From Escherichia phage EC_OE_11, in the sequence record OQ108497.1: a stretch of DNA of 64,000 nt; one strand, 5' to 3'. This document shows, piece after piece, positions 11,696 to 14,875 of the stretch. Under the pieces are notes generated by a model, which worked only from the letters and a program-made list of their open reading frames with translations, did not search any database and had not been told where the DNA came from. Numbering within the stretch: position 1 is the first letter of the stretch; each line of letters starts with the position of its first letter. The position numbers were made by a program, and so were the translations under genes.

Positions 11696-12127
11696 TTAAT
11701 CAGTGAAAATTACGCTTACATCTTCTTTAGAAAAGAGTTTATGATCTTCACCTTTTGTCTCAAGAGTTTCATACAGGTTAAGAAGTTCTGAAACATCTTT
11801 CTCTACCAGTTTCTTCAATGTTGCAATTTTCTGTTTGCGATTCTTAATACGTTCAGCTACAACCTTACGTTGGTATCCGGCAGTACGATAACCGGAGAAA
11901 GTTACACCAGTGAGACTTGCAGTTACAGGATCGTAATGACGTTCAATCTGAAATTTATTAAAAGGTACAGCGTCATCACGAATAATCTTACCGCCATTAC
12001 TTACTTGACGAAGACCAGTAACTTGTTCCAGTCGTGCCATAGAAATCTTTGGAGACAGACCAGAGTCCAAGTTCATACCGTTGTTAATCAGTGCCTTCAG
12101 GGTGATTTTGCTGTTCAGTGTACTCAT
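11696..12127 (-). CDS. hypothetical protein co-transcribed with DNA methyltransferase
   Basis: 143 aa; start overlaps upstream MTase gene (alternative ATG about 12076); no recognisable motif. Confidence 0.35.
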   Translation of the reverse strand: MSTLNSKITLKALINNGMNLDSGLSPKISMARLEQVTGLRQVSNGGKIIRDDAVPFNKFQIERHYDPVTASLTGVTFSGYRTAGYQRKVVAERIKNRKQKIATLKKLVEKDVSELLNLYETLETKGEDHKLFSKEDVSVIFTD

Positions 12128-12815
12128 TTAGTCGTTCCTCCGCTTGCTTAAAAATATTTACATCGGCTTCACAGCCTAAGTATTCTCTACCTGTTAAAAG
12201 TGCCGCAACTTGTGTTGTTGCACTTCCAGAGAAGAAGTCTAAGACTACATCTCCTTCGTTGGTGTGTATATTAATAAGGTCACAAAACAAAGTCAAGTGT
12301 TTTTGTGTTGGATGAAAACGATCTGCTCCTTGATAGATAGGATACTCAAACACACCCTTATGGTAGGAAGCATTGAAGGTTGGCTTCGAACCTTTAACAC
12401 AAACAATAGCCATCTCTTTAGCGTTACTAAGGTAGTTAACACCACTGTTGATGGGTACAGGGTTGGTTTTAATCCATTCAATAGTACGGAACATACGAAA
12501 ACCAAGCGGTTCAAGGATTTCACGTAGTTCCTGGATCTTCCAGATATCATACCAAACTATGCAAGTACCACCTTTTCTAAGCACCCTATAGGCTTCTTTG
12601 AATACTTCTTTAAAGTAAGGAATATCTACAACATCCCAGTCACCAAAGTTGTAAGATACACGGAATCTATCCGTATCTTTTCCAGTAGGCTCTCCAGATT
12701 GAAAATTTGTGTCACGAGAAATAGCATATGGTGGGTCAGTAAGAATCAAATCTACACTGTTGCTTTCGAGGGTTTGCAGGTAGTTTAATGCGGTGTTGTT
12801 TACAAATTCGCTCAT
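12084..12815 (-). CDS. DNA methyltransferase (beta-class, N6-adenine or N4-cytosine)
   Basis: 243 aa; GAAGGAG RBS; catalytic DPPY motif (ILTDPPYAI) precedes AdoMet-binding FFSGSATT, the circularly permuted beta-class order. Confidence 0.85.
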   Translation of the reverse strand: MSEFVNNTALNYLQTLESNSVDLILTDPPYAISRDTNFQSGEPTGKDTDRFRVSYNFGDWDVVDIPYFKEVFKEAYRVLRKGGTCIVWYDIWKIQELREILEPLGFRMFRTIEWIKTNPVPINSGVNYLSNAKEMAIVCVKGSKPTFNASYHKGVFEYPIYQGADRFHPTQKHLTLFCDLINIHTNEGDVVLDFFSGSATTQVAALLTGREYLGCEADVNIFKQAEERLNEYTEQQNHPEGTD

Positions 12816-12830
12816 TATATCTCCTTCAAA

Positions 12831-12853
12831 GAAAAGGAGCCGTTAGGCTCCTT
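12831..12853 (-). terminator. terminator-like hairpin (near-identical copy of hairpin at 11664)
   Basis: GGAGCC-GTTA-GGCTCC with flanking A/T runs; lies between SSB-like stop and MTase start. Confidence 0.5.
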
Positions 12854-12875
12854 ATATTCACACAATATTTAATTA

Positions 12876-13823
12876 TTAGAAACAGTGCAGGAAGTTTCGA
12901 CCATATTGCAAACCAATAGGAGCAAATGGGATATCATCATCGAAATCTTGAACAACAGGTTCTGGTTCTTTCGGTGCTGGCTCTTTCTTCTCTACTTTCT
13001 TAGTTTCTTTCTTAACTTCTTGTACTGGGGTAGACATTCCACGGATAGCAGCAGCTACTTTATCAGACAAAGCAAGAACTTCACGAGCAGCTTCAATAAT
13101 CTCTTCTGCCGTTACAGTTTTACCTGTATGATCACGACAAGCATTAAGAATTGCGTGTCCAACTGAAGCACCAAGATCATAATCAGTCACGTCAACGCCA
13201 CGATCTTTAGCAATTTCAGCTTTCAGAGTAACAGTTGCAGATTGTACCACACCAGCCAAATCGAAAGCATCACCTTTCACACCAGCACGTAGAAGCTCCA
13301 GAGCGCCGTTTACAGCGTGTCCTGTTTCAATCCCTACGGTATCACGTTTTTTGTAGTTAGGCTTGCTACCGTCATTATTAGATGGCTTATTTCCACCTTT
13401 TGAAGAAGATTGTGCTTGCTGAACACCTTCTGTTGAAAGAATAGTGATTTTACCTTTAGAGGAATTGTAGTATGTTTTGCCATTCCATTCGGAAGGTTTA
13501 ACATCCATAGTTAGTTCTACACCTTTTTCAATAGTAACCCACTTATCACCATCTTTAACTTGCAGGTTTTCATGTTCTGGGTGCAGTTTAACTTCACCTA
13601 GACTAACCCAAACGCCTTTATCCTCAGCACCAGCACCTTTCTCTTTAATAAGCAGAGATGCTTTGTGAGTTGATTCAATTTTCTTATCTGGCTGACCTGC
13701 AACCTTAATATAAGAGACTTTCATTTCATCAAACTTATCTAGTTTGACATATTCGACAATACCTTCAGCCCAGAATGCTTCTTTTTTAGTACGGCGGTCG
13801 ATTTCAGAATTAATTACTGGCAT
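12876..13823 (-). CDS. putative ssDNA-binding protein with E. coli SSB-like acidic tail motif
   Basis: 315 aa; contains DFDDDIPF (the E. coli SSB C-terminal tip) but followed by 17 more residues; Gly/Ser/Asn-rich linker; N-terminal beta-rich region. Confidence 0.4.
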   Translation of the reverse strand: MPVINSEIDRRTKKEAFWAEGIVEYVKLDKFDEMKVSYIKVAGQPDKKIESTHKASLLIKEKGAGAEDKGVWVSLGEVKLHPEHENLQVKDGDKWVTIEKGVELTMDVKPSEWNGKTYYNSSKGKITILSTEGVQQAQSSSKGGNKPSNNDGSKPNYKKRDTVGIETGHAVNGALELLRAGVKGDAFDLAGVVQSATVTLKAEIAKDRGVDVTDYDLGASVGHAILNACRDHTGKTVTAEEIIEAAREVLALSDKVAAAIRGMSTPVQEVKKETKKVEKKEPAPKEPEPVVQDFDDDIPFAPIGLQYGRNFLHCF

Positions 13824-14281: not shown

Positions 14282-14875
14282 TTAAATTTTAAATTCTTCG
14301 TTGTTAAATGAATCCAGTGTACGTACTTCCGGTTCTTTGGGAATGAATACGTCTTTTACAAAGCGGAACATAGGGAAACGTTCTGCCATTTTACGGACGT
14401 GTGCTTCTTTACCTGTGTATCGGTGATTAATAGTGCAAATATTAGTCTTCAATGCAAATTCAAAATCTGGATGATATACATAGTTTTGACCATCCCAGTA
14501 ACACAGGCAAATAGCTACATCAAAGTTCCATACGATTTCACTACGTACACCTTCTTCCATGATCATAAAGTTAAACTTAAGGTCTTTATAGTATGCTTCA
14601 AATACCCATTTCAAATGTGGTAGTTCGGCATAAGTGTGTTCTGTTTGCTTAGTAAGTTGTTTCACATTACGTGCACCAACACCCAACATTAAAAATTTCT
14701 CTACTAATACGAGTGTATTGTGGTTAGGCATACGCAAGTAAATGTCAATGTCTTGTGCAGGTTTCTCTAATCGCCAATCACGTACAGCGCCGCCAGCAAC
14801 AATTGCAAACGGATCTACCAGTTGGCACATACGTAATACTTCTAAAGCTCGTACTTTTTGATCTTCAATATTCAT
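14282..14875 (-). CDS. Pol-beta superfamily nucleotidyltransferase (CCA-adding/poly(A) polymerase head-domain-like)
   Basis: 197 aa; motif AIVAGGAVRDWRL ... DIDIYL resembles the GGxVRD ... DxD head-domain signature of tRNA nucleotidyltransferases. Confidence 0.45.
   Translation of the reverse strand: MNIEDQKVRALEVLRMCQLVDPFAIVAGGAVRDWRLEKPAQDIDIYLRMPNHNTLVLVEKFLMLGVGARNVKQLTKQTEHTYAELPHLKWVFEAYYKDLKFNFMIMEEGVRSEIVWNFDVAICLCYWDGQNYVYHPDFEFALKTNICTINHRYTGKEAHVRKMAERFPMFRFVKDVFIPKEPEVRTLDSFNNEEFKI

What the first reader, a model, noticed from the sequence alone, without database searches (positions are those of the whole stretch)
12876..13823. SSB-like protein carrying an internal copy of the E. 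coli SSB C-terminal tip (DFDDDIPF) followed by a 17-residue extension
The octapeptide DFDDDIPF is identical to the extreme C-terminus of E. coli SSB, which recruits many host replication and repair proteins and normally needs a free terminal Phe. Here it is followed by APIGLQYGRNFLHCF before the stop. Either the extension is real and changes or masks partner binding, perhaps acting as a decoy for host SSB-interacting proteins, or the true C-terminus is created by processing, or the extension reflects a frameshift or sequencing error.
Basis: partly seen in the sequence, partly recalled or inferred. Interest (0 to 1): 0.45.

Follow-up and report, generated by a model that had tools for sequence, protein, structure and literature searches.

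The report
Capped SSB tip left by homing endonuclease
A phage DNA-binding protein carries the host SSB docking tip followed by a conserved 15-residue cap, a real and widespread tail module that here arrived with a selfish homing-endonuclease gene that was later deleted.

Summary
ORF 12876..13823 (-) encodes 315 aa ending DFDDDIPF + APIGLQYGRNFLHCF. The extension is 15 residues, not 17.

It is not an error. Close phi92-like phages share it, and 85 distinct versions of the same 14-17 aa cap end many phage and prophage proteins: canonical SSBs, this SSB-like family, and primase-helicases. The consensus is A-P-[IV]-G-L-x-[YF]-x4-[IL]-[HY]-x-[ILV]-COOH.

The cap evolves under protein-level purifying selection (pN/pS 0.39 in frame, against 1.2-1.6 out of frame). 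The now-internal tip is constrained even more strongly (0.03).

The N-terminus models as an OB fold, followed by a four-helix bundle. The protein is homologous to Bas52_0087, the reported DRT10 trigger.

Cap presence is patchy: 21 of 100 family clusters have it. Four sister pairs differ by one cassette inserted at the last Phe codon, carrying the cap plus an overlapping HNH endonuclease gene. Phage ZCKP1 has the window's exact cap with an intact endonuclease. The window keeps only that gene's first 11 codons.

What the cap binds is unknown. My best inference is a two-part docking motif that changes which partners the tail binds. I found no published description.

The parts
12876..13823 (-). 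Gene for a 315-aa SSB-like protein (PHROG 4477 family; homolog of the DRT10 trigger Bas52_0087)
   Evidence: ORF. phrog_4477 at E=4e-101. No Pfam hit. BLASTP against Bas52_0087 gives E 2e-15 and 1e-14. 100 homolog clusters found.
13434..13823 (-). N-terminal OB-fold domain (residues 1-130)
13044..13343 (-). Four-helix bundle domain (residues 161-260). D161 aligns with the DRT10 escape site D252 of Bas52_0087.
12948..13043 (-). Disordered Lys/Glu/Pro-rich linker (residues 261-292)
   Evidence: pLDDT 48-66 and no secondary structure. Variable in the family alignment.
12924..12947 (-). Internal copy of the host SSB C-terminal tip, DFDDDIPF (residues 293-300)
   Evidence: Translation. Matches the terminal residues of solved SSB chains. 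In cap-bearing alleles these 8 codons have pN/pS 0.03 with saturated synonymous change.
12879..12923 (-). 15-residue cap APIGLQYGRNFLHCF (residues 301-315); stop codon at 12876-12878
   Evidence: Translation. 85 distinct cap peptides of 14-17 aa share one consensus. pN/pS is 0.39 in frame against 1.17 and 1.56 out of frame. The amino-acid sequence is identical to the caps of ZCKP1, ECO340P2 and PsgM04F, and the differences from ZCKP1 and ECO340P2 are all synonymous.
12869..12904 (-). Remnant of an HNH homing-endonuclease ORF in the +1 frame (MVETSCTVSNN*). Its ATG sits inside the cap codons Q306-Y307-G308.
   Evidence: Translation. ZCKP1 has the intact ORF MVETSCIASKVCFKCG... starting at the same ATG. 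Alignment shows the endonuclease body deleted in the window.
12834..12853 (-). Intrinsic-terminator hairpin after the gene, shared with cap-less and endonuclease-bearing relatives
   Evidence: Terminator scan gives AAGGAGCCTAACGGCTCCTT followed by a T run. The same hairpin follows the gene in L066, L067, ECO340P2 and ZCKP1.

Best explanation
The gene encodes the phage's SSB-like replication/recombination protein. It has an OB fold, a four-helix bundle and a disordered tail. The tail is a composite of the host-type SSB tip DFDDDIPF plus a conserved 15-residue cap.

Shown:
- The cap is genuine and translated.
- It is kept by protein-level purifying selection.
- It is a portable module that always sits at the extreme C-terminus of tip-bearing phage and prophage proteins: canonical SSBs, several other SSB-like families, and primase-helicases.
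- The tip stays under very strong constraint when internal.

Shown by comparative anatomy:
- In this lineage the cap entered as the left end of a free-standing HNH homing-endonuclease cassette inserted at the last Phe codon.
- The endonuclease gene's start codon lies inside the cap codons.
- The endonuclease body was later deleted, leaving 11 codons.

Inferred:
- The endonuclease homes to the conserved tip-coding DNA and carries the cap with it by co-conversion.
- Tip and cap work together as a two-part docking peptide. Loss of the free Phe carboxylate should weaken classical tip binding. The conserved A-P-[IV]-G-L...[IL]-[HY]-x-[ILV]-COOH block supplies a second contact.
- This would change which host or phage partners the tail recruits, while keeping the invaded gene functional.
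For: Reality of the cap:
- Every close relative shown has the same full-length ORF.

Module:
- 21 of 100 family clusters carry the cap.
- 57 of 59 IMG/VR loci, mostly prophage SSBs, carry it.
- 64 cluster representatives in a 1.84-billion-protein scan match the tail profile, and most of them carry the cap.
- Carriers fall in at least 14 PHROG families; only 5 of 28 scanned are Pfam SSB.
- Primase-helicases carry it too.

Selection:
- Third-codon-position entropy is 1.56, against 0.88 and 0.59 for positions 1 and 2.
- pN/pS is 0.39 in frame, against 1.17 and 1.56 out of frame. The first six codons in lytic phages give 0.03.
- Tip codons give 0.03 in cap-bearing alleles.

Fold and family.

Endonuclease cassette:
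- Four sister pairs differ by it: Bas52/Bas54, L066/L067, phAPEC8/ZCKP1 and KE22/KE23.
- ZCKP1 has the identical cap plus an intact endonuclease. ECO340P2 shows a clean internal deletion. The window keeps a remnant.
- Of the nine close endonuclease homologs I inspected, eight sit directly after a tip-bearing gene, across several unrelated phage groups (Phapecoctavirus and relatives, Vequintavirinae including Seunavirus, Drexlerviridae, a Vibrio phage).
- The endonucleases fall in phrog_2340 and phrog_1035.
Against: - No binding partner was identified. The docking function is inference only.
- AF2 models the cap as disordered, with pLDDT below 50.
- Most prophage SSBs with the cap have no endonuclease downstream. 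The endonuclease therefore explains the spread in large lytic phages, not the origin of the cap.
- One close endonuclease homolog (Alux-21) sits at an unrelated site.
- Cleavage specificity of the endonuclease is untested.
- From established SSB structural work (my own knowledge), the Phe alpha-carboxylate is a key contact. An internal tip may therefore bind classical partners poorly.
Confidence: 0.6

Rival explanations
1. The extension is a sequencing, assembly or frameshift artefact, and the true protein ends at DDDIPF.
For: Most orthologs (79 of 100 clusters) end exactly at DDDIPF.
Against: All close-relative records shown carry the same full-length ORF. The same cap occurs on unrelated proteins with many synonymous differences.
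Confidence: 0.01
2. The cap is a functionless read-through scar. The endonuclease cassette replaced the stop codon, and the added residues are merely tolerated.
For: The cap and the endonuclease gene arrive together in four sister pairs. The endonuclease start codon lies inside the cap codons. In the window the endonuclease is gone and only the cap remains.
Against: pN/pS is 0.39 in the SSB frame, against 1.17 and 1.56 in the other frames. It is 0.03 for the first six codons, which no endonuclease ORF overlaps. In the overlap the SSB frame (0.44) is better conserved than the endonuclease frame (0.77). The window differs from ZCKP1 and ECO340P2 only at synonymous sites. Prophage SSBs keep the cap with no endonuclease nearby.
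Confidence: 0.1
3. Mask or decoy. The cap only buries the Phe carboxylate. The protein then avoids recruiting host SSB-interacting nucleases and helicases, or avoids defence sensors that read foreign SSB tips.
For: From established structural knowledge (my own), SSB partners contact the terminal carboxylate. The family homolog Bas52_0087, which ends at DDDIPF, triggers DRT10, and ExoI/SbcB modulates that system (bioRxiv 10.64898/2026.04.29.721553). Patchy gain and loss is typical of arms-race traits.
Against: A steric cap needs no specific sequence, yet A1, P2 and L5 and the [IL]-[HY]-x-[ILV] end are conserved across 85 variants. If the tip were inactivated it should decay, but it shows pN/pS 0.03 in cap-bearing alleles.
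Confidence: 0.2
4. Pro-peptide or degron. The cap is removed by a protease after Phe300 to expose a functional tip. Alternatively, its non-polar C-terminus targets the protein for cytoplasmic tail-specific proteolysis, limiting its level.
For: The junction F|A-P is almost invariant, the cap ends in non-polar residues, and its length is fixed. The tip remains strongly constrained, as expected if it is later exposed.
Against: I know of no protease with this specificity, and none can be inferred here. Nothing in the data shows processing. A degron would not need the conserved A-P-[IV]-G-L block next to the tip.
Confidence: 0.15

Closest known systems
E. coli SSB C-terminal tip (SSB-Ct, DDDIPF) and its interaction hub
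   Same: The octapeptide DFDDDIPF is identical, and it follows a disordered linker after an OB-fold DNA-binding domain.
   Different: Here the tip is internal and followed by a conserved 15-residue cap. The OB domain is not a Pfam SSB family member, and a four-helix bundle lies between the OB domain and the tail. No solved structure contains the cap.
Bas52_0087 of phage RudolfGeigy, the SSB-like trigger of the DRT10 reverse-transcriptase defence (bioRxiv 10.64898/2026.04.29.721553)
   Same: Homologous in both the OB and helical regions (BLASTP E 1e-14 and 2e-15). Same gene neighbourhood type. It carries an FDDDIPF tip. Escape site D252 aligns with the nearly invariant D161 here.
   Different: Bas52_0087 is 408 aa, is described as having two OB folds, and ends exactly at the tip. 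Its sister Bas54 has the cap plus an endonuclease. The preprint passages I read describe the tip motif but say nothing of a cap.
T7 gp2.5 SSB and gp4 primase-helicase acidic C-terminal tails
   Same: In some phages an SSB-type protein and the primase-helicase carry the same kind of acidic, Phe-containing tail. Seu621 and K54_rec1 have two capped proteins per genome. This suggests a shared docking site, as in T7 (my own knowledge).
   Different: There is no sequence or family relationship. The T7 tails end at the aromatic residue, whereas here 15 more residues follow.
Free-standing HNH and Seg/Mob homing endonucleases of T4-like phages
   Same: A small endonuclease gene is inserted between conserved genes. 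It is present or absent between sister phages with precise boundaries and carries flanking sequence with it.
   Different: The insertion point is the last codon of tip-bearing genes from unrelated families. The cassette adds a selected 15-codon extension to the invaded gene, and the endonuclease start codon lies inside that extension. Cleavage was not tested.
HK620 SSB tail (NDYPPF) that recruits the phage annealase Sak4 (PMC5928155)
   Same: A phage SSB whose last residues mediate a specific partner interaction. Capped canonical SSBs likewise sit next to Erf-type annealases.
   Different: The HK620 tail is terminal and has no cap. No partner is known for the cap.

Membership tests
Bacterial/phage SSB family (Pfam PF00436) | Sequence match to the SSB OB-domain profile | tested here: not met
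   No Pfam family at E<=1. No PDB sequence match outside the tail.
Bacterial/phage SSB family (Pfam PF00436) | OB-fold ssDNA-binding domain | tested here: met
Bacterial/phage SSB family (Pfam PF00436) | Disordered linker ending in an acidic tip with a free C-terminal Phe | tested here: not met
   The linker and DFDDDIPF are present, but Phe300 is followed by 15 residues.
PHROG 4477 / Bas52_0087-like SSB-like proteins of Stephanstirmvirinae and Vequintavirinae | Profile match and collinear homology across the OB, helical bundle and tip regions | tested here: met
   phrog_4477 at E=4e-101. 100 homolog clusters. Family alignment A1. BLASTP to Bas52_0087.
PHROG 4477 / Bas52_0087-like SSB-like proteins of Stephanstirmvirinae and Vequintavirinae | ssDNA binding, and triggering of DRT10 | not testable with these tools
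   Reported only for Bas52_0087 by genetics.
Tip-plus-cap tail module (defined here) | The tip [DE]-x-[DE]-[IVT]-P-F is followed directly by A-P-[IV]-G-L-x-[YF]-x4-[IL]-[HY]-x-[ILV], and the protein ends 14-17 residues after the Phe | tested here: met
   The window tail fits every consensus position except the last, where Phe is seen in only 1 of 57 caps.
Free-standing HNH homing-endonuclease cassette | An intact endonuclease ORF next to the invaded gene | tested here: not met
   Only an 11-codon remnant, MVETSCTVSNN*, remains. The next gene is a DNA methylase, PF01555.
Free-standing HNH homing-endonuclease cassette | Left-end and right-end homology to an intact cassette at the same site in a relative | tested here: met
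   The window aligns with ZCKP1 through the cap and the first endonuclease codons, then again at the endonuclease 3' end and the terminator.
Free-standing HNH homing-endonuclease cassette | Site-specific cleavage of cassette-free alleles and biased inheritance | not testable with these tools
   Inferred only from eight of nine inspected close homologs lying after tip-bearing genes, and from four sister pairs.

The most novel reading that the evidence does not exclude
The 15-residue cap is a previously undescribed short linear motif. It would turn the universal gammaproteobacterial SSB tip into a two-part ligand with a different partner specificity, for example tight capture or exclusion of one host SSB-interacting enzyme such as ExoI. 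It would be spread among unrelated phage replication and recombination proteins by a family of HNH homing endonucleases that use the tip-coding DNA as their homing site. That would be a selfish element carrying a functional C-terminal mini-exon for the gene it invades.
Probability: 0.35. Interest if true: 0.8.

Novelty: new variant of a known kind. Interest (0 to 1): 0.6.

Why it matters
The SSB tip is the docking handle for more than a dozen genome-maintenance enzymes, and the accepted view (my own knowledge) is that it must be terminal. A conserved, selected cap on that tip occurs in many phage and prophage proteins across Gammaproteobacteria. Either the tip can work internally with help from the cap, or phages deliberately re-tune the host SSB interactome. 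Peptide-binding assays can test both ideas directly.

The family is also relevant to defence. A homolog triggers DRT10, with ExoI involved. Capped and uncapped natural alleles are therefore ready-made test material.

The endonuclease link would add a clear case of a homing element targeting a short coding motif shared by non-homologous genes. It also explains why the tail of this protein is mosaic between otherwise distant phages.

Tried and rejected
- Pfam on the whole protein found nothing.
- PDB sequence searches matched only the tail.
- Full-text literature searches for the cap strings (DIPFAP, APIGLQY and others) found no paper. Searches on SSB tip, extension, prophage, mimic and homing endonuclease found no description of the cap or of tip-targeted homing.
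- I first suspected that the cap is always just the 5' end of an endonuclease cassette. I rejected this as a general rule. Cap-bearing prophage SSBs are followed by other genes (an Rv2179c-like exonuclease, P22 Abc2, small unknown ORFs) that start 9-21 nt after the stop.
- By eye, the cap does not fit the beta-clamp motif QL[SD]LF or a PIP box. This rests on my own knowledge and was not tested with a tool.
- A word-indexed search with the tail profile returned only short fragments. The exhaustive scan was more useful.
- A Gad2 (anti-Gabija) label on homologs of the gene two upstream was not confirmed for the window copy.

Full report
**Observation.** The ORF at 12876..13823 on the minus strand encodes 315 aa. 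Its last 23 residues are DFDDDIPFAPIGLQYGRNFLHCF. The extension after the tip is 15 residues, not 17. A profile of the tail matches the final 22 residues of solved SSB chains, for example 1eqq_A residues 157-178 of 178, and the printed alignments read PPMDFDDDIPF. No solved chain matches the extension. The motif occurs once in the window.

**Where the window comes from.** The region is 95-99% identical in DNA to 55 phage records of the phi92/Justusliebigvirus type. All close-relative rows shown by tblastn cover residues 1-315. A frameshift or sequencing error is therefore excluded.

**What the protein is.**
- Pfam finds nothing. PHROGs places it in phrog_4477, function unknown, at E=4e-101.
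- An AF2 model built on 38 homologs has a beta domain (residues 1-130), a disordered stretch, a four-helix bundle (163-260) and a disordered tail that includes the extension.
- The protein is homologous to Bas52_0087 of phage RudolfGeigy (BLASTP E 2e-15 and 1e-14). A 2026 preprint reports Bas52_0087 as the SSB-like trigger of the DRT10 defence system, with ExoI/SbcB as a modulator (bioRxiv 10.64898/2026.04.29.721553). Escape site D252 of that protein aligns with the nearly invariant D161 here.
- Neighbouring genes are a family-A DNA polymerase and an N6/N4 DNA methylase.

**The extension is a module, not a peculiarity of this gene.**
- Among 100 homolog clusters, 79 end exactly at the tip and 21 carry a 14-17 aa extension of one recognisable type.
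- The nearest relative of the window's cluster that lacks the extension is 93-95% identical in the core. At least eight capped lineages are closer to an uncapped relative than to any other capped one.
- A tail profile scanned against 1.84 billion cluster representatives found 64 matches, most of them with tip plus cap. Of 28 carriers scanned, only 5 are Pfam SSB. Carriers span at least 14 PHROG families.
- The cap also ends prophage SSBs of Escherichia, Salmonella, Proteus and Tatumella.
- It ends Vibrio phage SSBs.
- It ends the primase-helicases of Seunavirus and Mydovirus phages, whose uncapped relatives end natively in ...DDDTPF.
- 57 of 59 IMG/VR loci fetched with the tip pattern carry the cap, always 14-15 aa long and always at the very end of the protein.
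- Across everything fetched there are 85 distinct cap peptides, 57 of them exactly 15 aa. The consensus is A-P-[IV]-G-L-[QPM]-[YF]-[PGA]-[RN]-[HN]-[AFL]-[IL]-[HY]-[ACVM]-[ILV]-COOH.
- A scan of one genome per bacterial species found the coding pattern in 30 species, nearly all Gammaproteobacteria.

**The cap is selected as a peptide.**
- In 33 unique cap DNA sequences, entropy at codon positions 1, 2 and 3 is 0.88, 0.59 and 1.56.
- Over 40 unique sequences, pN/pS is 0.39 in the SSB frame, against 1.17 and 1.56 in the shifted frames.
- In the lytic-phage subset it is 0.29 overall and 0.03 for the first six codons.
- The window differs from ECO340P2 and ZCKP1 only at synonymous sites.
- In cap-bearing alleles the eight tip codons have pN/pS 0.03 with saturated synonymous change. 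The tip is therefore still needed although it is internal.

**How the cap reached this lineage.** Four sister pairs differ by one cassette inserted at the final Phe codon.
- Bas52 ends ...DDDIPF*, followed by a terminator. Bas54 has the cap APVGLQYGKSRIHAL plus a 207-aa endonuclease gene, and the flanks are collinear.
- L066 is uncapped. L067 has a cap plus an overlapping 142-aa ORF with an HNH motif.
- phAPEC8 is uncapped. ZCKP1 is capped with an intact endonuclease.
- KE22 and KE23 show the same difference in the primase-helicase gene.

The endonucleases match phrog_2340 and phrog_1035, annotated as endonuclease and endonuclease VII. Both share an N-terminal C-x-K-C-G...EFYKH...CK-x-C module. 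Their start codon lies inside the cap codons for Q-Y-G. Of the nine close homologs I inspected, eight sit directly after a tip-bearing gene. They occur in Phapecoctavirus and relatives, Vequintavirinae (including Seunavirus), Drexlerviridae and a Vibrio phage. One, Alux-21, sits elsewhere.

ZCKP1 carries exactly the window's cap together with the intact endonuclease MVETSCIASKVCFKCG.... ECO340P2 is the same arrangement with a clean internal deletion of the endonuclease. The window keeps only MVETSCTVSNN* (12869..12904) and a trace of the endonuclease 3' end before the shared terminator. The window's cap is therefore a surviving left end of a homing-endonuclease cassette.

That the endonuclease cuts the tip-coding DNA, and that the cap makes invaded alleles immune to it, is inference.

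**Limits of the endonuclease explanation.** Cap-bearing prophage and Vibrio-phage SSBs have no endonuclease. Their downstream genes start 9-21 nt after the stop and include an Rv2179c-like exonuclease and P22 Abc2. The cap therefore exists and is conserved independently of the endonuclease. The endonuclease explains its spread among large lytic phages, not its origin or its function.

**Mechanism.** No partner was identified.
- Sequence-specific conservation in two blocks (A-P-[IV]-G-L next to the Phe, and the terminal [IL]-[HY]-x-[ILV]), the fixed length, the strict terminal position and the retained constraint on the tip all argue for a two-part docking peptide. They argue against a neutral scar or a simple steric mask.
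- Carrier N-domains are unrelated, so an intramolecular partner is unlikely.
- The carriers are spread across Enterobacterales, Vibrionales and Alteromonadales. This points to a conserved host partner, or to a partner class shared by many phages.
- Some phages carry the cap on both the SSB-like protein and the primase-helicase. This recalls the shared polymerase-docking tails of T7 gp2.5 and gp4 (my own knowledge).
- Masking of the host-type tip, or removal of the cap by proteolysis, remain live alternatives.

**Novelty.** Full-text searches for the cap strings found no paper. Related searches found no description of the cap or of tip-targeted homing. Subscription-only literature was not searchable. 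I rate the finding a new variant of known kinds: tip-bearing phage SSB-like proteins and free-standing homing endonucleases.

Noticed in passing
L001 3001-3078 (KE23), L072 (NINP13076), L002 (K54_rec1); uncapped relatives: Primase-helicases of Seunavirus and Mydovirus phages end natively in an SSB-like tip (...DDDTPF). Sister phages KE22 and KE23 (98.6% identical here) differ by the cap plus an endonuclease gene.
   Followed up: partly
L006 2600-3223 (Bas54), L067 3444-3872, L071 1174-1668 (ZCKP1): Two different nuclease families (phrog_1035, endonuclease VII type, and phrog_2340) share the same N-terminal zinc-finger-like module (C-x-K-C-G...EFYKH...CK-x-C). They occupy the same insertion site after the tip codons. 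This suggests the shared module sets target choice.
   Followed up: partly
L077 370-2450 (Salmonella phage NM-3, P22-like); L069 (ACG-M12); L075 (Vibrio phage BT-1011): Capped canonical SSBs sit inside recombination modules. In NM-3 the order is erf, ssb, exonuclease, anti-RecBCD Abc2. In ACG-M12 and BT-1011 the SSB follows an Erf-like or recombination protein.
   Followed up: no
window 14282..14875 (-): The precomputed annotation of this gene's homologs in L066 and L067 lists Pfam PF26128 (Gad2, an anti-Gabija family; marked weak in L066). phAPEC8 annotates its copy as a tRNA nucleotidyltransferase. The window copy itself gave no Pfam hit at E<=0.001.
   Followed up: partly
window 12084..12815 (-) and 11696..12127 (-): An N6/N4 DNA methylase gene and a small ORF follow the SSB-like gene here. 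In Phapecoctavirus and the metagenomic relatives L066 and L067, the SSB-like gene is followed directly by a convergent tail-protein gene. The methylase block looks like a lineage-specific insertion.
   Followed up: no
L070 1108-1137 (Vibrio phage 207E29.1): A tip-bearing gene ends ...DFDDDIPFN*, a one-residue extension. A close homolog of the same endonuclease starts a few dozen bases downstream (exact start codon not determined). The endonuclease can therefore sit at this site without the 15-residue cap.
   Followed up: no
L086 5713-5744 and 6261-6292 (Rheinheimera MAG): Two copies of the tip-plus-cap coding pattern lie about 550 bp apart on one contig.
   Followed up: no
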